A stretch of 64,000 bases of DNA. Source: an uncultured virus (IMG/VR IMGVR_UViG_3300005080_000002). Lineage: Duplodnaviria > Heunggongvirae > Uroviricota > Caudoviricetes. This document shows, piece after piece, positions 7,658-32,083 of this stretch. Under the pieces are notes generated by a model. The model made no database searches. It had not been told where the DNA came from and saw nothing but the letters and a program-made list of their open reading frames with translations. Made by a program: the position numbers and the translations under genes. Position 1 is the first letter of the stretch; every line of letters begins with the position of its first letter. The stretch is from the IMG/VR virus record IMGVR_UViG_3300005080_000002. One strand, written 5' to 3'.

Positions 7658-8980
7658 TTATTTGTACTGGTTTGATGCCAAAGCCCGCAGGAGGAAATAA
7701 AGCATCAGGGAACTTCTCGCAGAAGCCAATGCGGCAGATGAACGCAGGTGGCTATTCTTTTTAACGAACTTCTCAATGCGTGAACGCAATTCCAAAAGCA
7801 GTGGGTCGGATGTTTTAGACGACATATACAGCGCTTTCATCTTGATGAGGATAGCACCGACGTCGTTAAAACGCACGCGGTTCTTGGCGATATAATCGAA
7901 TGCATGCAGGAGGGTATTCTCCATCATCCACTCAATCTCCCGCCGTTCTTTACCTTCCGGCGCCCGAGCGATGGTTTGCAGCAAACTGATAAACGCGTTC
8001 TCGGATACCGACGTCATCAGTTTAAGCACAACATCAATCAGATCGCGTTTGATGAAACTGGCTTCGTTACCGGAAACATCAAACAAGTAATAGCGGGCTG
8101 TGTTGTAAGCACTCACCTGATCTTTGATGATCTTATCCCCATCCATCGACAACATGGTTGATGAAGTGGACTGGATACGCAGGTTACCTCGACGGACGTT
8201 ATCGAGCACACCGTACATATCAATGATCGTACCTTTGGAACGTGTCTGAAGGTCGGTGATAATACGAGTTACTGCCATGTCGTCGGCGAACTGTTTGAGC
8301 GGTTTATAGCGAATGCTGTCAGGCGCAATCAAACGCTCTCCACGGTCGCGCATCAGTGCGCCCCAGCTACCTAGTTGCTTAAGAGCAAACTTAAGCGTAA
8401 GGGCCGCATAGGTGGCTTCTGCGGCATCTTGGTCTACAGGCTTAGCAAAGAAGTTGTACCAGATAGAGGTGTAGAACTTGAACTGGAGTACCACAGCTGC
8501 TTCGATCATTGCCTCTTGTGCCAGCTTGTCATTGGCGATAGACGATACGAGCAGGCGATGGATTACCCAGATACAACTCAAGTTGAAGGGATCCGAGGCT
8601 ACTTTCCAGTCCGTGTTCAGATAGTTGGTAGAGTGAACACACTCGCGGAGATATTCTTCATCAATGCCAAGGACCTCATCAAACCAACGATTCCGATCGG
8701 CATCTAAGAACTTGATGCGTTCTACGCCAAGAAGGTTACCGCCAAAGAAACGGATATGGTCATCGTTTTTGGTGGCGAGGTTCTTGCTGTAGGAAATAAC
8801 CGCCTTAGCGAGTTTAGCGTTACCTACGACATCCCCTGCGGCTTCCTCGAAAGCTTCGCGAAGGGTGGCATACTTAACACCAGAAGGTTGGTCTATCGCT
8901 TCTAAACCTGGACTCTTGGGACTGAACCCACCAGCAAAGGCTGAGAATGCGGCTAACGTCTTTTCAAACGGCATTGTCAA
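7658..8980 (-). CDS. Conserved head-associated protein (phiKZ gp32-like), about 440 aa
   Basis: Long ORF with an N-terminal G-L-E prohead-protease-type site (PGLEA). Assignment mainly by size and synteny. Confidence 0.5.
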   Translation of the reverse strand: MTMPFEKTLAAFSAFAGGFSPKSPGLEAIDQPSGVKYATLREAFEEAAGDVVGNAKLAKAVISYSKNLATKNDDHIRFFGGNLLGVERIKFLDADRNRWFDEVLGIDEEYLRECVHSTNYLNTDWKVASDPFNLSCIWVIHRLLVSSIANDKLAQEAMIEAAVVLQFKFYTSIWYNFFAKPVDQDAAEATYAALTLKFALKQLGSWGALMRDRGERLIAPDSIRYKPLKQFADDMAVTRIITDLQTRSKGTIIDMYGVLDNVRRGNLRIQSTSSTMLSMDGDKIIKDQVSAYNTARYYLFDVSGNEASFIKRDLIDVVLKLMTSVSENAFISLLQTIARAPEGKERREIEWMMENTLLHAFDYIAKNRVRFNDVGAILIKMKALYMSSKTSDPLLLELRSRIEKFVKKNSHLRSSAALASARSSLMLYFLLRALASNQYK

Positions 8981-8991
8981 TTCCTCATAGT

Positions 8992-9023
8992 TAAAAACTT
9001 TTCAGGCATATGTTATCTGAGTG
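8992..9023 (+). promoter_or_regulatory. Phage early promoter
   Basis: aaaaacttttcaggcaTATGTTATc-tgagtg, matching the repeated motif. Confidence 0.65.
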
Positions 9024-9061
9024 AAGTTAACGTTGTAATTCAATTAATTGGAGCCCTAACC

Positions 9062-9838
9062 ATGAATTTCATCGCGTCCAACCGTGCTGCTTTTAACCGT
9101 GATTTCGAGAACGGTTATATTAGCAACATCAGAGTTATGGTAAAACCGACCGGAGTCATTTGCTACGTCGACAGTATCAACGGCGTAACAAACCTGCACA
9201 ACGGATCGACGCATCTAGTAAACGATGCGCTATCATCAGCGCTGGCGAGAGCCGGGATATATGGTTGGGTACTCGTGCATGCCCGCGACGTACCTCGTGT
9301 CACCAGCAAATGGCTGACATACAACCTCAACAAACTCCCGCTTGAGGAGTGGGCAAGTAGTCTTGTCGTGTATACCTTTGGGCAGGACCTCAGCGATTAT
9401 GATTTAACGTCATTACCGTTCGAGGTTAAACCACTGGAACTGGAAAATATAGATGACGGGATATCATCTATCCTTTCAAAGTACAGCCACGACATGGCTT
9501 TTGACGGACTGATAATTTCAGCCCTCAATAAAATCAAGGGTGAGGTCTTCTATAAGATTCTCCCCAATCGGGTAACTCCAGCCAAAATCGTTGCCGTTGG
9601 CACCGGACGAGGCGGTAAAATAACAAGTCTGATCGTGGAAACAAACCACGACGGTAAAGATTACGTAGTGAACGTGGCGTCGATTCCCAGCTGGATTAAG
9701 GAGACCGCTGTCTACCGATATCGAAATAAGTTTATCGGTGGTGAGGTTGAGCTCTCATATACCTCTTTTAATCCTGGGGATCGAATTAAGAATTTCAGTA
9801 GTCCGGCCATCACATCGGTTCCGGCAGTAGACCTCTAA
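9062..9838 (+). CDS. Divergent ATP-dependent DNA ligase-like / covalent nucleotidyltransferase-fold protein, 258 aa
   Basis: Ordered motif remnants: I VKPTG (KxDG), III IYGWV, IIIa VVYTFG, IV FDGLII, V FYKILP. These are followed by an OB-like region AKIVAVGTGRGGKITSLIVE...IGGEVELSY...FSSP. Confidence 0.55.
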   Translation: MNFIASNRAAFNRDFENGYISNIRVMVKPTGVICYVDSINGVTNLHNGSTHLVNDALSSALARAGIYGWVLVHARDVPRVTSKWLTYNLNKLPLEEWASSLVVYTFGQDLSDYDLTSLPFEVKPLELENIDDGISSILSKYSHDMAFDGLIISALNKIKGEVFYKILPNRVTPAKIVAVGTGRGGKITSLIVETNHDGKDYVVNVASIPSWIKETAVYRYRNKFIGGEVELSYTSFNPGDRIKNFSSPAITSVPAVDL

Positions 9839-9847
9839 GGAGGGAAT

Positions 9848-10219
9848 ATGGATTTACCTGTAGCACGCATTGCCAAAACGAACGTACGTATCGTTGATGG
9901 CGCTATTGAACTGGTCGACGGTGTATATGACGACACACTGCTCGGTCTTCATTCCACCTACGTGTACAGCGGTTGCAACGTAGCCGTAGTACGTGAAAAG
10001 AACCGCTTTGCGATTTATCGCGTGGCAAGCAACTATGACTACGAAACGATGAATCGTCGGATCGTCATGGTCAAGCTGCGTGAGAAGCTCGCAGATGCTG
10101 GTATCGAACTCGTTGACTTCGGCCTGCTCTATCAAAAGGTAGATGGCTGGTATGTGAACGGTGTACCTATCAGCATGTACATCGAAAACAACAAGCGCTA
10201 CTGCGCGCTTAAACACTGA
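9848..10219 (+). CDS. Hypothetical protein, 123 aa
   Basis: AAGGAGG RBS; co-oriented with the upstream gene; hairpin at 10226-10243. Confidence 0.75.
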   Translation: MDLPVARIAKTNVRIVDGAIELVDGVYDDTLLGLHSTYVYSGCNVAVVREKNRFAIYRVASNYDYETMNRRIVMVKLREKLADAGIELVDFGLLYQKVDGWYVNGVPISMYIENNKRYCALKH

Positions 10220-10329
10220 TATATCAGGCCTCGAAAGAGGCCTGCCTTATTCATGCCATAACGGCATAAAGCCCCTAGGTGCATTTCGCACCTAGGGTTA
10301 TACGAAGCTATTGGTTTTATGGAGTAACA

Positions 10330-10758
10330 ATGAAAGCTTTGATATTCGCTATTTTGACTGTACTGTCTTTTGGGGCCGTAGCCGATAACACTTATACCGA
10401 AGTGTTGAAGGTGTGGAACAAGTCCATTATTCAGAATGATCAGGATAACACATTGTGGTGTAATGAGTGCAATACTCAGCCTGATAAATATACAAAGTTT
10501 ACCGGTGATGCGCTCACCGGGCCGATTAACCCGTGGTACATGGCAGGGCCGACGTTGATAGCCCGTGTAGATACAGGTGTTATGTGCCCGAGCGGAGATT
10601 GGTTTGCAATCGATACTTACTCGCATCGAATCGTGCAAATCAAGCTGGCTAGCTGCAAAGAGATTTCGCCCGTGGTTATTGCGAACCCTCACAGCATTGA
10701 ATTCAAGTTCTCCCAGGACGGGAAGAACTATCGAGTCGTCTTCACAGACGAGTCGTAA
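10330..10758 (+). CDS. Exported/periplasmic hypothetical protein, 142 aa
   Basis: GGAG RBS before ATG 10330; signal peptide MKALIFAILTVLSFGAVA; four Cys in the mature part. Confidence 0.7.
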   Translation: MKALIFAILTVLSFGAVADNTYTEVLKVWNKSIIQNDQDNTLWCNECNTQPDKYTKFTGDALTGPINPWYMAGPTLIARVDTGVMCPSGDWFAIDTYSHRIVQIKLASCKEISPVVIANPHSIEFKFSQDGKNYRVVFTDES

Positions 10759-10792
10759 AAGCTAGGGGCTCAGGCCCCTAGTTCTTTTTTTT
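10757..10792. terminator. Bidirectional terminator
   Basis: aaaa-g-ctaggggc-tcag-gcccctag-ttctttttttt. It would end both the + strand gene and the - strand RNA. Confidence 0.8.
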
Positions 10793-11390
10793 GTGTCCGG
10801 TGGTTTGGGATGAGGCCACTACTTTCGCGCTGCGCATCGGCTGCCGTATTTCGTGACCCCATCCCTCGCCGGATGTAGATTGTGTTTTATGCCCCAAGCC
10901 TAGTACCTGTCGTAACTTGCTAGCGTGTCCAATCAGCGGGACGGTACCCTTTCCGAGGACCTGATAGCCAGCGAAGAGGCGGCGACGGCCGCTTTGACTT
11001 TCCAATGACTTGTTACAGACATGACCACCTGCAACGGTCAGAACCGGGCGCAAGGTGTTTTACAAGTTACCGTCGGTGCCAATCGGAATCCACCGTCTTG
11101 GCTTGTTGTACCCCTCTGGGGCCGATAACCGTGTCCACAATCCACAGCACCGCTGAGGCGACTAATCTGCCTGACCGAGGCTACCAATCGCGGGAGGGCG
11201 ATACGGAGGCTGCCTGAATGTTCCAAGGCTTGCCGAACTGATCTATTCCATCCCACCCCTCTAGACCCACTTCACCGTGCGGTTTGAATGCAGGGGAAGA
11301 CTAGGGGGCATGGCCGACGCTTCCATTCAGCGACTGCCTACGGTTCTCGATCTGTGTTCGGTTTGATTTTTGTCGACACAACGTTTCTGC
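10760..11390 (-). ncRNA. Putative large structured non-coding RNA (~600 nt), family not recognised
   Basis: GC-rich gap with no credible ORF, many nested helices whose mismatches become G-U pairs only on the minus strand, complementary 5' and 3' ends, and flanking promoter motifs and terminator. Confidence 0.7.
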
Positions 11391-11419
11391 ATAGTATACA
11401 CACACAAATGTAATTTTTT
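11390..11419 (-). promoter_or_regulatory. Putative middle/late promoter of the ncRNA
   Basis: Minus-strand TATG at 11393-11390 (phiKZ late start motif) and AAAAATTAC at 11418-11410, centred 24 nt upstream (phiKZ middle motif AAanntTAC). Confidence 0.55.
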
Positions 11420-11446
11420 ACATGGTTTGTATTTTATATAGTTTCT

Positions 11447-11710
11447 CGATACAGGGTTTTGATACCCTGATCGGTTGTTTCGTGTATTGTTTCAATTAGT
11501 GCGTGTGTACGCGTGCGCGTGTTATTATTATTTTTACTATCCGTAAGGATAAGTAAAAATTAAAGATTAAAAGAAGTAAGGAAATAAATATATAAATATA
11601 TTTATTATTTTTATACGCGTTGCGTAGGCACGCACGCGGAATAGAGAAGGGGATTATTTTTGATCTCCGATAAGATAATTTAAATCTATCGGGAGATTCA
11701 AAATTAATCC
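11447..11710. repeat. AT-rich cluster of nested inverted repeats (candidate origin or cis-acting site)
   Basis: Inverted repeats at 11447-11473, 11499-11520/11615-11635, 11530-11560, 11583-11606 and 11651-11710. Confidence 0.75.
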
Positions 11711-11735
11711 TTGGATATTCTTCGGATCAGACAGT

Positions 11736-12314
11736 TTGGACAGTACGGAAAATACTAAACCAAAATTTCGTGAGATTAAACCTCACGAAAAATCTTTGAT
11801 GATAATCCGAACGCGCGAGGGCCGGCCGGTTTTTTTTAACATGGGTGGGTTATATTTTGCAAGAACCCACAAGCGAGGATCCGAGATGCGAACACTCACC
11901 CCCAGTGCGTTCGTCTTGGAATGCCTTGGTGGCATGGTCTCAGGACGGAACCTGAAACCGAATTCCAATTTGATTGCCCATGTTATGCGCAAAATATTCA
12001 CAGCCCCCTCAGCCACTCCGAACGACGAATACGTGGTCGTAGGCGTGCCGTTTTACAATCTCGATTACGGAATCGATGCGACCGGCATTGCCGTCGAGGA
12101 ACTGTTCAACGGCGAAGCGGATCTAGTCAACGGTCAGAGCGCTGAAGCGATCGTCGGTGATATTCTCCAGATGTACTTGCTCCCCATAGCCAGACCTGGG
12201 GTTAGTCAAGCACAGATCAGATTGAACACCGCGTTTTGTGATACCATGATAAACCACCTGATCTACTTCGGGTACTGGTATCGGATGGATCACTACTCGA
12301 ACGAGCTCCACTGA
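11736..12314 (+). CDS. Hypothetical protein, up to 192 aa (start uncertain)
   Basis: Long ORF with a TTG start and no clear RBS; no recognisable motif. Confidence 0.55.
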   Translation: MDSTENTKPKFREIKPHEKSLMIIRTREGRPVFFNMGGLYFARTHKRGSEMRTLTPSAFVLECLGGMVSGRNLKPNSNLIAHVMRKIFTAPSATPNDEYVVVGVPFYNLDYGIDATGIAVEELFNGEADLVNGQSAEAIVGDILQMYLLPIARPGVSQAQIRLNTAFCDTMINHLIYFGYWYRMDHYSNELH

Positions 12315-12327
12315 TCGGGGGTGGAAC

Positions 12328-12738
12328 ATGAGACAAATCAATTTGGTCGCTATGCTATGTGAAAATCCCAAATCGCTGGCTTCGATGGCTAACCTCGATC
12401 CTACGGATCAGAGAACACGCTGTTACAAACGGGCAGTAGCTACCCATGTCGCTGTAGAGGAAGCTTGTGGTCGCATAGCAGAGCTCGGCAAGCTTAGCGG
12501 CACCGTAGAACTCGATTGGGATACGCCGTATTGTGATCGGCTCGGTAAACGCCGGGAAGATCGCGTCACTAAGATCATCGAAGAGTCCATCGAGAGCGGT
12601 GGAAACGATCCGATCTTTGCAGTGACACATGCCGTAAGACACTTCGTAGTCAAAGATGTATCGAAGATGTCCGATGACAAGTCTAATGAATACATTCGGA
12701 AGATTGTCAACGGTATTGTAACCAGAACACGCTCGTAG
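12328..12738 (+). CDS. Hypothetical protein, 136 aa
   Basis: Follows the previous ORF closely; ends before the terminator hairpin at 12779-12818. Confidence 0.6.
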   Translation: MRQINLVAMLCENPKSLASMANLDPTDQRTRCYKRAVATHVAVEEACGRIAELGKLSGTVELDWDTPYCDRLGKRREDRVTKIIEESIESGGNDPIFAVTHAVRHFVVKDVSKMSDDKSNEYIRKIVNGIVTRTRS

Positions 12739-12822
12739 TACGCGCTGTGTGCAGATGTCAGTTTACTCTGTTTATTAAGCTCTAGGGGCTTGTCCCCTAG
12801 AGCCTTTTTTCTTTTTTTGTTT

Positions 12823-13638
12823 TTATACGCCAGAACGGCCAGCACGTTTGGTATGGATCATACCACGTTGCGGATCCATGAGGATCAAGATCTTCGACCA
12901 TTTCTCATTGAGCAGGGTGTTATAGACCTCGAATGCATCGCGGTATTCATCTACACGTTCACGGTAGCGTCCGAGTTCACGACCGCCATCGAGTTTGAAC
13001 TGTTCGATCTCCAAATCCAGCTTTCTGAAAATAACGACCTTAGTGGCCGCCAGAACGAGTTGACAGAAATCCTGGTAGTAGGGTCGAGTAAGTTCGCTAA
13101 AGTCGCTAGAATAAGCAACCAGGCACGATAGCGTGGTGTCCGAGGTGAAGTTCTGGAAGTCACGGATCTTGATCACGTTATCGTTCAAAACTTCGATCTG
13201 AGCGTTAGCAATATTAGGCACAGGGCGCCAGCTATTGATAACACGTTGACCGGAACGTTCGATAGGCGCTACGAAGTTGGTGTTGTTCGTAAGGCCGGGT
13301 TGTCGCTCGGCAAAGTTACTGGTTACGTTCAGCGTAGACTTAAGAACCTGCACGATCTCACGATTGAATGTAAGGGCGTACGGGATCTTGTAGATACGCT
13401 CGTAGTTGGGGCGCATCTCCCACTTAAGGCCTGAGAGATTGACGTCTACAAGCACACCACCGATAGTGGCGATATCGGGCATTACTTTCTTTTCAATTAC
13501 CTCCTCGCGGATAGCTTGTTCGATAGAACGACTTACCCGACGCAGTCGATCTGATTTAGGGATGAACGCATCCATGAGGATACGGTCAGGTATATCTTGA
13601 TTCAGAACGTGTCTGATCGCGAATGAAAAGGCGTCCAT
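12823..13638 (-). CDS. Conserved phiKZ-like hypothetical (possibly virion) protein, 271 aa
   Basis: AGGAGG RBS before ATG 13638 (MDAFSF); converges on a bidirectional terminator. Confidence 0.7.
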   Translation of the reverse strand: MDAFSFAIRHVLNQDIPDRILMDAFIPKSDRLRRVSRSIEQAIREEVIEKKVMPDIATIGGVLVDVNLSGLKWEMRPNYERIYKIPYALTFNREIVQVLKSTLNVTSNFAERQPGLTNNTNFVAPIERSGQRVINSWRPVPNIANAQIEVLNDNVIKIRDFQNFTSDTTLSCLVAYSSDFSELTRPYYQDFCQLVLAATKVVIFRKLDLEIEQFKLDGGRELGRYRERVDEYRDAFEVYNTLLNEKWSKILILMDPQRGMIHTKRAGRSGV

Positions 13639-22140: not shown

Positions 22141-24006
22141 ATGTCCTTCACTACTGGTGAAAACGAAAACAAAACCATCAACGACGTTCAAGCTGCTGAC
22201 AAGGGCAGTGAGCGTAAGCCGCGCAAACCTCGTGATGAACGCGATGCACCGATCCGTCAGAATACCGGCCGCATGGCCAGTTTCCGTAACATCGGCGAGT
22301 ACGGCCGCGCCGAAGAAATGCACAAGACCTACCAAGAGATCGTCAAGACTCAAGGTGGTATCGCTGGTGAACTGCTGCCGGTAATCGGCGACGTCCGCCG
22401 TGAACTTTCCGATGAGTTCGGCTACCTCATCTACCTGACCCAGCACGCCGGTGAAACCTTCTGGCACCTGCTGGTTCTGGAATCCCAGAAGTGCCCGGTC
22501 ATCAAGCGTCCGGTGAACGACCGTGGTGCTCGTCGTCGCGATGAAGACGTGTACGAGTTCTTCACCACCACCGATGGTATCACCGTCGAGCTCAACGAGC
22601 TGATGGAAGACTACATCAAGACCGCCGTCGAAAATGCCGGCAACCTGGTTGCGACTTCCGTAACCGTTGTTCCCTGCGAAATCGACGTCACTGATCCGCT
22701 GGCTATCCGTCCGTTCCTCATGTCTGCTGACGAAGCCAACTGGACCATCGCCGGTATCGACGATCCGTTCAACGGCGACTACCTGCCCGAAGGCGGTTCC
22801 GTACGCGGTAGCCTGAACTTCCAAGTCGGTGCCACTGCAAAAGACCTGTCCGGTCAGCCGCTGCGTGCCGACTTCGTCGGTTCCATCCGTGAACATCTGG
22901 AGCGTACCAACCCGAACCTGCTGATGGCCAACGACAAGGGCGACACCTTCGTAACCTTCGCCGGTTACGTTGATGCCCGCTACGTCGGTGTGCGTGACGA
23001 TGGCGATCGTCGTCGTCGTCGTGACGAGGAAGTCGAGACTGCCTGCTTCGCCCCCGAAGTAGTCATGACCGAAGTCGACCTGTACCACGAAACCAAGAAC
23101 GGCCCGCTGGCCCGCCTGGCTCTGGCACTGTCCTTCCTGCCGCAACTGAACACCAACTTCCGTTGGGTTCAGCAGTTCGCTCCTTCCACCGCGAAGAACC
23201 AACTGCGCGACATCACCGGTTTCGGCTACGGTTTCGACCCGGATGGTCCGATCGCCCCCGATCGCATCCTGGCCACTGCCGAAGATCTGCACGATGACAA
23301 GACCTTCAACCGCCTGCTCGACAAGATCTTCGACACCGAAGATGGCGTCGACTTCGCATACCTGATTCGCGAAGGTGGTGTTGGTTACGCAACCGCCAAG
23401 GTTCTGATCGACCTCTACAACGGCTCCGATGCCGCCGAAGATGCTCTGATCCAGGCCCTGGATGATCTGACCGACAACGAGTTCTCCCGTCTGTGGAACA
23501 AGGTCGAAGACCAGACCATCGTCGCTGATGTGCTGCGTCTGCCCAACGGCTACTACACCGCCGAAGACGGTATCCGTCCGATCGAAGACATCGACATGCT
23601 GGCAGTGCTCAACCGCCTGACCAACAAGAACGATGACTACCTGGACGACTACCTGGCCTGTACCACTCCTGGTGACGACTGCCCGTACGACTACAACGAG
23701 CGTATGACCCGCCTGGTCGCGATCTACGACTACGTTACCGGTCGTACCTTCGTCCAGAAGGGTGTGTCCACCAAGGTCTGGTTCGGTTCCGACTTCCTCG
23801 AGTGCGTCTTCGCAGCCGTGGAGCGTTCCGATCTGGCCCTGACCATGGACGTGGATGGCGATTCTTCCTTCGGTCGTCGTTCCCGTGCGGTCTCCCGTCG
23901 TCACGGCGTCGCCAACAACCTGGCCCGCCGCGAATCCCGTCGTCACAACTCCCGGACCCGCTCCGGTGGCTACGTTAACACCAGCTACCGTCGTGGTGCC
24001 CGCTAA
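22141..24006 (+). CDS. chmA: Chimallin, major phage nuclear shell protein (phiKZ gp54-like), 621 aa
   Basis: Size about 620 aa; immediately upstream of the nvRNAP beta' N-terminal gene; strong C-ending codon bias suggesting very high expression; own early promoter and terminator. No catalytic motif to check, so the call rests on synteny. Confidence 0.8.
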   Translation: MSFTTGENENKTINDVQAADKGSERKPRKPRDERDAPIRQNTGRMASFRNIGEYGRAEEMHKTYQEIVKTQGGIAGELLPVIGDVRRELSDEFGYLIYLTQHAGETFWHLLVLESQKCPVIKRPVNDRGARRRDEDVYEFFTTTDGITVELNELMEDYIKTAVENAGNLVATSVTVVPCEIDVTDPLAIRPFLMSADEANWTIAGIDDPFNGDYLPEGGSVRGSLNFQVGATAKDLSGQPLRADFVGSIREHLERTNPNLLMANDKGDTFVTFAGYVDARYVGVRDDGDRRRRRDEEVETACFAPEVVMTEVDLYHETKNGPLARLALALSFLPQLNTNFRWVQQFAPSTAKNQLRDITGFGYGFDPDGPIAPDRILATAEDLHDDKTFNRLLDKIFDTEDGVDFAYLIREGGVGYATAKVLIDLYNGSDAAEDALIQALDDLTDNEFSRLWNKVEDQTIVADVLRLPNGYYTAEDGIRPIEDIDMLAVLNRLTNKNDDYLDDYLACTTPGDDCPYDYNERMTRLVAIYDYVTGRTFVQKGVSTKVWFGSDFLECVFAAVERSDLALTMDVDGDSSFGRRSRAVSRRHGVANNLARRESRRHNSRTRSGGYVNTSYRRGAR

Positions 24007-30505: not shown

Positions 30506-32083
30506 ATGAAGCTCGTAGTAGAAATGCCGAAGGACGATGCAGATCGTAAACGCAAAAAGGATTGCGGTGATCTAAAGGTAGTTCATAATGGCAAAGAGTT
30601 GCACTTCGGCGTATTTATTGCGCCAAACGGTTGGGGCCATACCCCTACTGAACTGTTTGTAGAAATCAACATGTTCTGGGCAGCGCAATCTGCGGCGCGC
30701 CAAGACGAGATCTTCAAATGCTACGAGGAGATTGAGCAGCTGTTCAGCCGCGAGTCTAACTCCGGCAAAATCTGCATTGCATTGCAGCAGATGGTTATCC
30801 CGTTACTGGATGTTTATCATTCTACCGAACTCGTTAGTGCATTTGCTAACAAGATCGATATCGAATATCCAACTAACGCGGAAGATGAGTTCAATAGTAA
30901 TGATGCCCGCAAGCATCGTGAAATGACTTATCTGCGTCATGAGTATTTTGATCTTGCAGTAATTGCCATTATCCTGCGGACGCTGTTGCCGGTATGGAAC
31001 ATGTTCCGTGAATGTTTGGAAGGCGATGCCAGTAAGAAGGCCTCTGCCTACATCGATCTGGAAATCCTGCGCACGATCAAGTACACCGAGTTCGGTGCAT
31101 GCCATCAGATGATGCGCCTGCTCAGTTATACCACGGCCACCTATAAATGCCAGGACAGTAGCGGTGAGCTGAGCTCCATCGTATCTGGTCTCGGGTCTGT
31201 ATCTATTCCCGATTACATCTTTGCAAGTGCTCTGTCAAATAAGTTGATCACGACGCCGCTGTCTGCTAATAAAGCAGGTACGACGCTCATCAGCGCCATC
31301 TTCAATAAGGTGAAGCAGGACTGTAACCACCTGGGTGAAAAGTTCCCGCAGCGCGTTAGACACCGTCTGGATAACCGGATGGGCGATGAAGATGATAAGA
31401 TCGGTTATCTGGAATCTTACGCAGTGCGTCAAGAAGCCAGTAACGACGTCTATCTATTGTCCCAGATTTATCTGTACGACTACAGAAAAGCACGTGCCGA
31501 TCTTGACCCTACCATCCCTCCAAAGTTGGTGGCCGAATGTCTGAAATCGTTCAGTAGCGTTAATTTTAACAAGCACGTCCCTATTATGGGAGGTAACAAC
31601 CTGCTCCCAGTCCACCAGACTGTAGTGCAGTGGGTTCTGTCTCCGATAGTCAGTCCGAGAACGATTCCGTTCATCGACAGACGTGCAATGATTAACGCGA
31701 TGGCGATTACACAAGCTGCGCTCATCCATTGGGAGCTGCACGGTCTGGCCCGTACGCTCTGCTATATGCTGGAGCCGTCCGACGAAGACGACATGATCAC
31801 GCCAATGCTGCCGGTTGATACGGCGTTGAAGGCAAAGATTGAAAAGGCTTATCCCTACTGGCGTAAGGAGAAAAATAAGGATACTGCAAAGAACATGTAT
31901 CCAGCACTTATTTCTATCGAAGAGTATTGTCTGCTGCTCATCGGGAGAAAGTGGAATGTTGTTGCAACGGATGAAGTTAAAGAGCTTCTGAAGTTCAAAG
32001 ATGGCGATCGTGTCATTGATATGCATATCAAGTCAGAGATCGCGTCCCTGTTTATCATGCATCAATCTAGAAACGATAAATAA
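30506..32083 (+). CDS. Non-virion RNAP sigma-like subunit (phiKZ gp68-like), 525 aa
   Basis: Size, helical composition and position between the ChmC-like and PicA-like genes; synteny-based. Confidence 0.7.
   Translation: MKLVVEMPKDDADRKRKKDCGDLKVVHNGKELHFGVFIAPNGWGHTPTELFVEINMFWAAQSAARQDEIFKCYEEIEQLFSRESNSGKICIALQQMVIPLLDVYHSTELVSAFANKIDIEYPTNAEDEFNSNDARKHREMTYLRHEYFDLAVIAIILRTLLPVWNMFRECLEGDASKKASAYIDLEILRTIKYTEFGACHQMMRLLSYTTATYKCQDSSGELSSIVSGLGSVSIPDYIFASALSNKLITTPLSANKAGTTLISAIFNKVKQDCNHLGEKFPQRVRHRLDNRMGDEDDKIGYLESYAVRQEASNDVYLLSQIYLYDYRKARADLDPTIPPKLVAECLKSFSSVNFNKHVPIMGGNNLLPVHQTVVQWVLSPIVSPRTIPFIDRRAMINAMAITQAALIHWELHGLARTLCYMLEPSDEDDMITPMLPVDTALKAKIEKAYPYWRKEKNKDTAKNMYPALISIEEYCLLLIGRKWNVVATDEVKELLKFKDGDRVIDMHIKSEIASLFIMHQSRNDK

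What the first reader, a model, noticed from the sequence alone, without database searches (positions are those of the whole stretch)
10760..11419. Large structured non-coding RNA (~600 nt) encoded on the minus strand
Seen: the genome is otherwise wall-to-wall coding, but this GC-rich stretch has no ORF with an RBS and is full of nested helices. Examples: 13 bp 10807-10819/10853-10865, 10979-10992, 11022-11040, 11074-11078/11091-11095, 11187-11202, 11256-11264/11301-11308 and 11233-11238/11356-11361. Mismatches in several helices (two in the 13-bp stem) are A-C on the plus strand but G-U on the minus strand, which points to selection on a minus-strand RNA. The putative 5' end (TTGTGTC, 11381-11375) is complementary to the 3' end (GACACAA, 10797-10791), closing the whole molecule. 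It begins at a TATG motif (11393-11390) with AAAAATTAC 24 nt upstream, both matching recalled phiKZ promoter consensus, and ends at a terminator. Inference: a stand-alone RNA gene that I cannot assign to tmRNA, RNase P, SRP or an intron. Possible roles are a scaffold for the phage nucleus or ChmC condensates, a packaging RNA, a protein sponge against host defence, or a ribozyme.
Basis: partly seen in the sequence, partly recalled or inferred. Interest (0 to 1): 0.88.

Follow-up and report, generated by a model that had tools for sequence, protein, structure and literature searches.

The report
Abundant orphan non-coding RNA, jumbo phage
A nucleus-forming giant phage carries a stand-alone gene for a roughly 600-base RNA that codes for no protein and turns up in environmental RNA libraries, but it does not fold better than random sequence, so it is a real new RNA of unknown role, not a proven ornate structured RNA.

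Summary
The ORF-free, GC-rich stretch is real. It lies in the largest ORF-poor gap of a 219,689-bp phiKZ-like phage that encodes chimallin and nvRNAP gp68 homologues. A minus-strand promoter matches the published phiKZ middle-promoter layout: AAAAATTAC centred at -24 and TATG with +1 G at 11390. Relative L031 has it too. In two independent metatranscriptome studies, RNA contigs cover only 10823-11372 of the 4.5 kb laid; a third study shows only the flanks. The longest ORFs have no homologues, and natural variants carry 1-nt insertions in them.

The "large structured" claim is not supported. The body folds no better than dinucleotide shuffles (z -0.37 minus, -0.46 plus). Only two hairpins are stable, both more so on the minus strand. 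Rfam gives nothing.

Relatives (Vibrio phages pVa-21 and pVp-JHP1101, Erwinia phages Asesino and EarlPhillipIV, IMG/VR contigs) have promoter, ORF-free stretch and terminator at the same locus, 130-400 nt long. They share no detectable sequence or covariance-model similarity with this RNA. The Vibrio pair shows compensatory changes.

Verdict: a genuine stand-alone ncRNA gene, probably acting in trans. An origin-linked cis role is a serious rival. The function is unknown.

The parts
10760..10792 (+). Intrinsic terminator of the convergent gene 10279-10758: hairpin 10760-10783 plus T8 at 10785-10792. It is the probable stop for the minus-strand RNA too, read there as a hairpin followed by only CUUUU.
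   Evidence: terminator scan; z -3.4 plus, -3.2 minus; 6 other partial copies in the genome.
10793..11390 (-). Predicted non-coding RNA body of about 600 nt, or about 630 nt if it runs through the hairpin to 10757. GC 0.55.
   Evidence: Promoter at its 5' side. ORF-free. No homologues of its ORFs. Composition.
10823..11372 (.). The part recovered as contigs from RNA libraries. X16 gives one 550-nt contig, 10823-11372. X18 gives 10914-11226 and 11199-11367.
   Evidence: tables 2 and 8. The contigs do not show the strand.
10803..10870 (-). 3' hairpin domain: a 13-bp helix (10808-10820/10853-10865, two G-U pairs) capped by a small hairpin.
   Evidence: minus -30.7 kcal/mol, z -4.35, 0 of 200 shuffles; plus -24.3, z -2.27.
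11155..11195 (-). Internal hairpin that carries the two linked natural variants 11163 and 11183.
   Evidence: minus z -2.79, plus z -0.79.
11390..11393 (-). TATG motif. The predicted +1 is the G at 11390.
   Evidence: Sequence. In phiKZ, TATG has its last G as the start site (PMC4666361). Aligned with relatives.
11410..11418 (-). AAAAATTAC, centred 24 nt upstream of the predicted +1. It matches the phiKZ middle-promoter motif AAanTTACc centred at about -24.
11409..11422 (.). Palindrome TGTAAAAAATTACA. Read on the plus strand it gives TTTTTTAC-N15-TATAG, pointing towards the operon that starts at 11736, so this may be a divergent promoter pair.
   Evidence: Sequence and comparison with L010, L012 and L074. 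Inference; not tested.
11497..11636 (.). About 90 nt of almost pure A+T flanked by GC-rich inverted repeats of alternating purine and pyrimidine. It lies just upstream of the RNA promoter, and the same layout occurs in L031 and phage Asesino.
   Evidence: long hairpin alignment; z -4 to -6.8.

Best explanation
This is a stand-alone gene for a non-coding RNA of about 600-630 nt. It is transcribed on the minus strand by the phage's own RNA polymerase from a phiKZ-type middle promoter (AAAAATTAC centred at -24; TATG with +1 G at 11390). It runs into the bidirectional terminator at 10760-10792. The RNA accumulates far above the neighbouring mRNAs.

It is not a globally ornate fold. It carries a few stable minus-strand hairpins on an otherwise unremarkable GC-rich body.

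I infer that it works in trans as RNA, most likely as a protein-binding decoy or scaffold during middle to late infection. I infer also that it is one of a set of fast-evolving ncRNA genes that phiKZ-like phages keep at this position, beside a conserved AT-rich and inverted-repeat element.

Shown: the ORF-free unit, the promoter match, presence in RNA libraries, no coding homology, and the same kind of unit in relatives.
Inferred: the strand, the ends, trans action and any binding partner.
For: Host context: the genome encodes homologues of the phiKZ nuclear shell protein gp54 (E 1.8e-11, 628-aa frame) and of nvRNAP subunit gp68 (E 1.7e-32).

Promoter: AAAAATTAC (11418-11410) and TATG (11393-11390) fit the motifs and spacing stated in PMC4666361. 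L031, at 66% aa identity on the neighbouring 440-aa gene, has two tandem copies. In an alignment of 8 promoter regions from 7 loci, TTAC and the T.T.T of the start motif are invariant.

RNA: in X16 (study P9) a 550-nt contig at depth 14.5 equals 10823-11372. In X18 (study P10) two contigs lie inside the same span. Neither run covers anything else in 9000-13500, while the DNA-type run X1 covers all 30 bins. The RNA contigs share 4 variants with X1's phage contig.

Non-coding: no PHROG or Pfam hit for its ORFs. tblastn of the 93-aa and 77-aa frames against phages finds none. The 91-aa ORF has no relative among 5.8 billion proteins. No translated similarity to the syntenic regions reaches E below 0.003. 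Natural 1-nt insertions fall in the two longest frames: after 10832 in X1 at depth 13.3, and after 11110 in X18 at depth 3.

Strand: two hairpins are clearly more stable on the minus strand.

Relatives: units of promoter, ORF-free stretch and intrinsic terminator occur at the syntenic locus in pVa-21, pVp-JHP1101, L012, L031, Asesino and EarlPhillipIV. They are GC-enriched over their locus in 6 of 8 rows. The RNA-strand z of the body is -2 or lower in 4 of 6. pVa-21 against pVp-JHP1101 gives 61 predicted pairs: 4 compensatory, 9 one-sided, 0 broken, with indels of 1, 2 and 3 nt.
Against: Folding energy of the body is no better than shuffles on either strand.

Nothing ties this RNA to the syntenic RNAs of relatives. 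No shared k-mer exceeds shuffled controls. nhmmer and blastn align only the promoter and AT-rich part. A covariance model built from the two Vibrio-phage RNAs hits only L012, at E 0.0045, out of 12 sources searched.

One of three RNA studies (X20) shows the two flanks (10587-10757, 11647-11817) but not the gap.

All RNA evidence is from assembled contigs. It gives no strand, ends or level, and DNA carry-over in RNA libraries cannot be ruled out.

Divergence from X1's strain is about the same inside the RNA (7 differences in about 580 nt) as in the flanks.

On the minus strand the terminator has only four U's.

The zero broken pairs is partly built into RNAalifold.
Confidence: 0.5

Rival explanations
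1. Transcription here matters in cis, not through the RNA product. The promoter fires next to an origin-like or supercoil-sensitive element (an AT-rich core between alternating purine-pyrimidine inverted repeats). It would activate unwinding or provide a primer or R-loop. Recalled analogues are ColE1 RNA II, the T4 origin transcripts and the T7 phi1.1A/B origin promoters. The GC-rich stretch is then just the transcribed spacer that ends at a terminator before the convergent gene.
For: The promoter always sits beside the AT-rich and inverted-repeat element in the window, L031 and Asesino, and in Asesino the whole module is inverted as one unit. L031 and L010 have tandem promoters. This is the largest non-coding region of the genome. 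Across relatives the RNA body has no conserved sequence and its length varies from 130 to 600 nt. The body folds like random sequence.
Against: The RNA is the only part of 4.5 kb assembled in two RNA studies, at depth 14.5 in one of them; primer or R-loop RNAs are, from recall, usually scarce. Relatives end the unit with strong dedicated intrinsic terminators. Stems in the Vibrio-phage pair show compensatory changes. Cumulative GC skew shows no turning point here. No origin has been mapped in these phages, as far as my searches show.
Confidence: 0.2
2. It is a transcribed remnant. A decayed gene or acquired DNA still sits behind a live promoter, and the RNA has no function of its own.
For: The body has no fold signal. 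There is no conservation with the nearest relative beyond the promoter. Divergence is about the same as in flanking DNA. Local gene content is fluid: the 159-aa gene 10279-10758 has no counterpart in L031, and pVp-JHP1101 has a 1.18-kb insertion in its gap.
Against: No trace of a protein in any frame. GC is raised by 6 points over the genome, where neutral phage DNA usually drifts towards A+T (recalled). The same kind of unit is kept in several genera with its own terminator. In the Vibrio pair the RNA is about 84-85% identical, against 0.59-0.84 at third codon positions of five flanking genes of equal length.
Confidence: 0.13
3. It is an mRNA for one or more very small proteins. Candidates are the 21-aa frame that starts at the TATG's ATG and the 29-aa frame behind AGGUGG near 11024.
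For: Short frames exist. The first residues after TATG look alike in the window and L031 (MQKRC against MRRC, read by eye).
Against: That similarity is explained by the conserved start region of the promoter. L012 has a stop codon right after its ATG and pVa-21 has no ATG there. I saw no Shine-Dalgarno at normal spacing when reading the sequence by eye; this was not scanned. Most of the 600 nt would stay untranslated.
Confidence: 0.05
4. It is not an RNA gene at all. The RNA-library contigs are DNA carry-over, and the stretch works as DNA, for example as binding sites.
For: The contigs cannot prove transcription, as the tool's own caveat says. X20 lacks the gap. Short words recur (GATTGG three times, GGACAC three times).
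Against: Two independent studies recover the same roughly 550 nt and nothing else of the 4.5 kb laid. The k-mer repeats are not above shuffled controls once the maximum count is considered: 91% of shuffles reach it for 6-mers. The promoter and terminator layout is conserved.
Confidence: 0.07

Closest known systems
Small ncRNAs of phiKZ and 201phi2-1 found by ONT-cappable-seq and Grad-seq (PMC10914365, PMC11512511; passages read)
   Same: Phage-encoded, promoter- and terminator-defined non-coding transcripts in nucleus-forming jumbo phages. Some keep their position next to homologous genes. Their function is unknown.
   Different: Those were filtered to under 250 nt (89-196 nt named) and are mostly derived from 5' or 3' UTRs. 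This one is about 600 nt, stands alone between convergent and divergent genes, and lies at another locus. No sequence relation was tested, because I did not have those RNA sequences.
Large ornate RNAs GOLLD and ROOL, found in phages and prophages (Rfam; PMC12286853, listing and abstract only)
   Same: Several hundred nucleotides, non-coding, phage-associated, and abundant in metatranscriptomes (the last point is recalled).
   Different: No Rfam match even at E up to 10. There is no excess folding energy and no covariation data for this RNA, so there is no evidence of an ornate fold.
Syntenic ncRNA units of Vibrio phages pVa-21 and pVp-JHP1101, contig L012, and Erwinia phages Asesino and EarlPhillipIV (unannotated in the records)
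   Same: Same locus (between the phrog_3179 and phrog_2921 genes), the same promoter type (WWWTTAC, 13-16 nt, T[A/G]TG), ORF-free, terminator-bounded, and mostly GC-enriched.
   Different: They are 130-400 nt long, with dedicated strong terminators. The covariance model R1 and the k-mer tests find no similarity to the window's RNA. Homology is therefore unproven; only position and organisation are shared.
ColE1 RNA II and phage origin transcripts (T4 oriF/oriG, T7 phi1.1A/B) - recalled, not looked up
   Same: A non-coding transcript of a few hundred nucleotides that starts at a strong promoter beside an AT-rich unwinding region.
   Different: Here the AT-rich element lies upstream of the promoter, not downstream. 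The RNA seems abundant and ends at a terminator. No origin is mapped.
Earlier scan note e1-5797681: 'swappable early ncRNA cassette' in an AR9-like giant phage (AI note, unchecked)
   Same: A promoter, hairpins and terminator cassette making an RNA of a few hundred nucleotides. It differs between close relatives.
   Different: Another phage group, an early promoter, about 245 nt, and dominated by two long hairpins.

Membership tests
Any Rfam 15 family (tmRNA, RNase P, 6S, SRP, group I/II introns, GOLLD, ROOL, OLE, HEARO and others) | A covariance-model match at or above the family's gathering score | tested here: not met
   There were 0 matches in the whole window at gathering score. At E up to 10 on 10600-11750, the only hits inside the GC-rich body are mir-K12-10 (17.7 bits against 70) and a snoRNA model (17.1 against 70). 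ARAGORN finds no tRNA or tmRNA.
phiKZ-type middle promoter (PMC4666361) | Motif AAanTTACc centred at about -24 from the start site | tested here: met
   AAAAATTACa lies at 11418-11409. Its centre at 11414 is 24 nt from 11390.
phiKZ-type middle promoter (PMC4666361) | TATG at the start site with the last G as +1 (present in some middle promoters and in all late ones) | tested here: met
   TATG lies at 11393-11390 on the minus strand. It aligns with T[A/G]TG in 8 promoter regions.
phiKZ-type middle promoter (PMC4666361) | Transcription actually starts there, by the phage polymerase, at middle times | not testable with these tools
   RNA contigs end at 11372 and 11367, 18-23 nt short of 11390. 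Contigs cannot show a start.
Syntenic Vibrio-phage ncRNA (model R1 from pVa-21 and pVp-JHP1101) | A significant covariance-model match | tested here: not met
   cmsearch over the window and 11 loci gave only L012 1084-1222 (E 0.0045) and a terminator-sized hit in L024 (E 3.1). Power is low, because the model has 2 sequences.
Structured ncRNA in general | Folding energy below dinucleotide shuffles | tested here: not met
   z is -0.37 (minus) and -0.46 (plus) with 150 shuffles each. Two hairpins are exceptions.
Structured ncRNA in general | Compensatory base changes among homologues | tested here: inconclusive
   For this RNA only 8 substitutions are known from 3 runs. Six lie at positions unpaired in the MFE, one gives A-U to G-U, and one breaks a terminal pair. 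For the positional counterpart in Vibrio phages, 4 compensatory and 9 one-sided changes fall in 61 pairs.
Protein-coding gene | An open frame with homologues or codon-like conservation | tested here: not met
   The longest frame is 91-93 aa, with no family hit and no homologue. There is no translated similarity to syntenic regions. Natural variants carry 1-nt insertions in the two longest frames. A codon-usage score for that frame of 0 to 0.14 is no lower than for the small neighbouring gene, so that measure alone does not exclude coding.
Intrinsic (rho-independent) terminator at the RNA's 3' end | A GC-rich hairpin followed by a U-run on the RNA strand | tested here: inconclusive
   The hairpin is good on both strands. 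On the minus strand it is followed only by CUUUUA. The scan lists it on the plus strand only.

The most novel reading that the evidence does not exclude
Nucleus-forming jumbo phages of several genera keep, beside a conserved AT-rich and Z-DNA-prone element, a slot for a highly expressed middle-class non-coding RNA. Its sequence and length turn over quickly (130 to 600 nt). The window's RNA is the largest known example. It would act as an arms-race molecule, for example a decoy for RNA-targeting host immunity or RNases, or as an RNA component of the phage nucleus or of mRNA export. That would be a new class of viral long ncRNA.
Probability: 0.15. Interest if true: 0.85.

Novelty: new variant of a known kind. 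Interest (0 to 1): 0.55.

Why it matters
Phage-encoded ncRNAs in phiKZ-like phages are so far short, mostly UTR-derived, and of unknown function. This is a stand-alone RNA of about 600 nt with a recognisable phage promoter. It appears to be the dominant transcript of this phage in two environmental RNA data sets, and positional counterparts occur in cultured Vibrio and Erwinia phages, so it can be tested at the bench. These phages hide their DNA in a protein nucleus, which leaves RNA as the main target of host immunity. An abundant non-coding RNA is therefore a plausible player in that conflict, in nuclear RNA traffic or in replication control. The adjacent conserved AT-rich and inverted-repeat element is also a candidate for the still unmapped origin or a regulatory hub. 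The finding also shows that many plausible helices in GC-rich sequence are not evidence of structure.

Tried and rejected
Known RNA families: rejected.

Similar DNA in phages and plasmids: none. An exact 21-mer from the RNA found nothing in bacterial genomes or IMG/VR. Records near the window's own may be hidden by the tools.

Close relatives through flanking proteins: none in IMG/VR or in metagenomes. An alignment query gave 23 IMG/VR loci, the best at 66%, and 4 metagenome loci, none of which helped for this RNA.

A promoter pattern scan of IMG/VR gave 40 loci. All were chance hits, with none related by blastn or tblastx. My gap range also missed L031.

Sponge idea: GGA count is 12 against 11.2 expected, and repeated 5-7-mers are no more frequent than in shuffles. 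Rejected as unsupported.

Antisense regulator of phage genes: the longest complementarity to the rest of the genome is 13 nt, against 12-15 nt for shuffles. Rejected as unsupported.

Internal duplication to explain the double length: none.

Origin by GC skew: no turning point.

phiKZ itself: no comparable gap in its first 30 kb around the terminase gene, and the gene order differs. Not pursued further.

X20 covers the flanks but not the gap; contigs cannot prove absence.

The earlier-findings index had nothing on this genome or on look-alike stretches.
Full report
WHAT THE GENOME IS. The window is bases 61960-125959 of a 219,689-bp IMG/VR virus record, estimated 92% complete. Its genes match jumbo-phage families: terminase, virion proteins and DNA polymerase. 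The nearest named relatives of the neighbouring 440-aa gene (7658-8980, minus strand) are Vibrio phages pVp-JHP1101 and pVa-21 at about 54% aa identity, then Erwinia, Salmonella and Cronobacter jumbo phages at about 44%. The genome encodes homologues of the phiKZ nuclear shell protein gp54 (E 1.8e-11, inside a 628-aa frame) and of the nvRNAP subunit gp68 (E 1.7e-32). It is therefore a nucleus-forming, phiKZ-like phage with its own RNA polymerases.

THE OBSERVATION. The stretch is ORF-poor. Its longest frames are 91-93 aa and 72-77 aa on the minus strand and 70 aa (97 aa stop to stop) on the plus strand. With an 80-aa ORF mask, 11054-11735 is the largest of six uncovered gaps in the genome. The region has two parts. 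The GC-rich part runs from about 10790 to 11390, at 0.53-0.585 GC against 0.495 for the genome. The A+T-rich part, 11400-11735, has 0.29-0.35 GC.

IS IT STRUCTURED? Mostly this cannot be shown.
- My first folds gave z of about -2 on both strands. They included the terminator hairpin and used only 20 shuffles.
- For 10798-11390 with 150 dinucleotide shuffles, z is -0.37 (minus) and -0.46 (plus).
- 120-nt windows within 10820-11360 scatter around zero.
- 60-nt windows average -0.17 and -0.05, with 2 of 37 below -2 on each strand.

Two local elements stand out, and both favour the minus strand. The 13-bp hairpin domain 10803-10870 folds at -30.7 kcal/mol (z -4.35, 0 of 200 shuffles) on minus, against -24.3 (z -2.27) on plus. 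The hairpin 11155-11195 gives z -2.79 against -0.79. The 5'/3' closing helix is not evidence, because its 3' half lies in a terminator unit that recurs six more times in the genome.

IS IT AN RNA? Three lines say yes.

(a) Promoter. On the minus strand AAAAATTAC (11418-11410) is centred 24 nt upstream of the G of TATG (11393-11390). Yakunina et al. (PMC4666361, passages read) state three things: phiKZ late promoters have TATG with the last G as +1; middle promoters have AAanTTACc centred at about -24; and some middle promoters also carry the TATG. The exact long form of this promoter (TTAC..GTGTATACTATGC) occurs only once in the genome. The closest relative found, L031 (66% aa on the 440-aa gene), has it twice in tandem. 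An alignment of eight such regions from seven loci keeps TTAC and the start motif invariant. Looser matches (WWTTAC, 13-17 nt, TATG) occur at 10 places in the genome. By eye several precede genes; I did not test this against shuffles.

(b) RNA libraries. A search of public runs found 20 of 24 listed rows holding part of 10300-12300, from 11 studies. I laid four runs on 9000-13500; all were available as contigs only.
- In metatranscriptome X16, one 550-nt contig at depth 14.5 maps to 10823-11372.
- In X18, from another study, two contigs map to 10914-11226 and 11199-11367.
- Neither run covers any other part of the 4.5 kb.
- Run X1 (kind not on record, DNA-like) covers all 30 bins.
- The RNA contigs carry the same four differences from the window as X1's phage contig (11163, 11183, 11244, 11265), so they come from this phage lineage.
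- The two RNA studies stop within 5 nt of each other, at 11372 and 11367, which is 18-23 nt from the predicted start. The tool rates this kind of agreement a weak hint.
- Against this, the third RNA study (X20) has contigs on both flanks (10587-10757, 11647-11817) but none in the gap.
Contigs cannot give strand, ends or level, and DNA carry-over cannot be excluded.

(c) No coding signal. The frames have no PHROG or Pfam hit, no tblastn hit in 50,697 phage records, and no relative among 5.8 billion clustered proteins for the 91-aa ORF. There is no translated similarity to the syntenic regions of relatives; the best E is 0.003 in a database of nine short sequences. Natural variants carry single-base insertions inside the two longest frames: after 10832 in X1 at depth 13.3, and after 11110 in X18 at depth 3. 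A codon-usage score for the 91-aa frame is about zero, no worse than for the small neighbouring gene, so that measure alone does not decide.

RELATIVES. Synteny is kept between the phrog_3179 gene and the phrog_2921 gene, while the small genes between them diverge fast, at 25-35% aa identity. In that interval every relative I looked at has an unannotated gap. Inside it lies a unit with the same layout of T/A-rich TTAC, 13-16 nt and T[A/G]TG, then an ORF-free stretch, then an intrinsic terminator:
- pVa-21 and pVp-JHP1101, about 290 nt.
- L012, about 290 nt.
- L031, 300-400 nt with two promoters.
- Asesino, about 230 nt, with the whole module inverted.
- EarlPhillipIV, about 130 nt.

These stretches are GC-enriched over their locus in 6 of 8 rows. 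The RNA-strand z-scores of their bodies are 0.15, -2.1, -2.5, -1.0, -3.2 and -3.35. The two Vibrio phages can be aligned at about 84-85% identity, against 0.59-0.84 at third codon positions of five flanking genes of equal length. Of 61 predicted pairs, 4 change on both sides and 9 on one side while staying paired; none breaks, which RNAalifold partly ensures. Indels of 1, 2 and 3 nt rule out a long conserved frame.

Nothing links these RNAs to the window's RNA in sequence or structure. No shared k-mer exceeds shuffled sets. nhmmer aligns only the promoter and AT-rich part of L031 (E 0.0016). A covariance model of the Vibrio pair finds only the 3' part of L012 (E 0.0045) among the window and 11 loci. 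The family is therefore defined by position and organisation, not by demonstrable homology.

VARIATION IN THIS RNA. Eight substitutions and two insertions are known from three runs. On the MFE, six substitutions fall at unpaired positions. One turns A-U into G-U. One breaks a terminal pair of the same hairpin. This fits a structure but is far too little to test one. Divergence inside the RNA (7 differences in about 580 nt in X1) is about the same as in the flanks.

SURROUNDINGS. Just upstream of the promoter lies the palindrome TGTAAAAAATTACA (11409-11422). Read on the plus strand it makes a second promoter-like site pointing to the operon at 11736. Next comes about 90 nt of nearly pure A+T between GC-rich inverted repeats of alternating purine and pyrimidine (11497-11636; z -4 to -6.8). 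L031 and Asesino have the same element. This looks like a divergent promoter hub, and possibly an unwinding element or origin. That is an inference; GC skew gives no support.

MECHANISM. I commit to a stand-alone middle-class ncRNA that acts in trans, probably by binding protein (confidence 0.5 for the whole statement; about 0.8 that it is a real non-coding transcript). The reasons are discrete units with their own terminators in relatives, apparent high abundance, raised GC, strand-specific hairpins and compensatory changes in the Vibrio pair.

I found no support for a GGA-type sponge or for antisense pairing to phage genes.

The main rival (0.2) is that transcription itself serves the adjacent AT-rich element, by origin activation or priming. 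That would explain the free-running sequence and length. Lesser rivals are a transcribed remnant (0.13), a small-protein mRNA (0.05) and DNA carry-over with a DNA-level role (0.07).

WHAT IS KNOWN. Full-text searches found no report of a large ncRNA in these phages (jumbo phage + non-coding RNA + phiKZ; Chimalliviridae + ncRNA; phage nucleus + structured RNA; large noncoding RNA + bacteriophage + GOLLD + ROOL). In the passages I read, phiKZ and 201phi2-1 ncRNAs are 75-196 nt or were filtered to under 250 nt, and are mostly UTR-derived. A 2026 review mentions only that phiKZ expresses ncRNAs. The supplementary tables of those papers were not opened and might list longer transcripts.

VERDICT. 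A real and apparently undescribed ncRNA gene, a new variant of the known kind 'jumbo-phage ncRNA'. It is not shown to be a large structured RNA. Interest is 0.55.

Noticed in passing
window 11497-11636; L031 3880-4150; L073 918-1085: About 90-230 nt of nearly pure A+T is bracketed by GC-rich inverted repeats made of alternating purines and pyrimidines (for example GTGCGTGTGTACGCGTGCGCGTG). The element is conserved in layout in the window, L031 and Erwinia phage Asesino, always next to the ncRNA promoter. It is a candidate unwinding element, origin or regulatory hub.
   Followed up: partly
window 11409-11440: The palindrome TGTAAAAAATTACA gives a second promoter-like site on the plus strand (TTTTTTAC, 15 nt, TATAG). 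It points through the AT-rich element to the operon starting at 11736. RNA run X20 has a contig at 11647-11817 that bridges the leader and the gene start.
   Followed up: partly
window 10760-10798 and G000 7509, 53445, 141349, 167622, 175758, 202778: The terminator hairpin with its T-run is a repeated unit with six other copies at 89-97% identity over 31-38 nt across the genome.
   Followed up: partly
L009 3469-4647 (Vibrio phage pVp-JHP1101): Relative to pVa-21, the syntenic non-coding gap carries a 1.18-kb insertion. It holds a 380-aa ORF on the ncRNA strand (annotated hypothetical) with no Pfam family above threshold.
   Followed up: partly
L010 3340-3430 and 4030-4130; L074 1195-1255: C-tracts, read as GGAAGGGGGGAT..GGGGGG on the other strand, sit just downstream of a TTTTTTAC..TATG-type promoter. 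They are shared between an IMG/VR contig (two tandem copies) and Erwinia phage EarlPhillipIV. On the RNA they would be G-quadruplex-prone.
   Followed up: no
L008 3790-3920 and 4460-4620 (pVa-21): A long polypyrimidine tract and a matching polypurine tract flank the central part of the 1.5-kb unannotated gap, upstream of the ncRNA promoter.
   Followed up: no
L031 3490-3700: Three spaced copies of AGGATGGG(C/T)AGGT-like words (iteron-like) lie on the far side of the AT-rich element. GGGATGG also occurs twice in the window's RNA (10859-10870 and 11248-11259 on the plus strand).
   Followed up: no
window 10279-10758: The 159-aa gene that converges on the RNA has no counterpart in any of the 8 related loci compared by tblastn, so gene content around the RNA is fluid.
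   Followed up: partly
window 10300-12300: Near-identical DNA (share of sampled words 0.38-0.74) is held by runs from several studies. These are labelled freshwater, food, groundwater, biofilm and wastewater, so the phage lineage seems widespread. Only one such run was laid.
   Followed up: partly
window 22141-24006 and about 30578-31873: Homologues of the phiKZ nuclear shell protein gp54 (24% identity, E 1.8e-11) and of nvRNAP subunit gp68 (24% identity, E 1.7e-32) lie in the window.
   Followed up: partly
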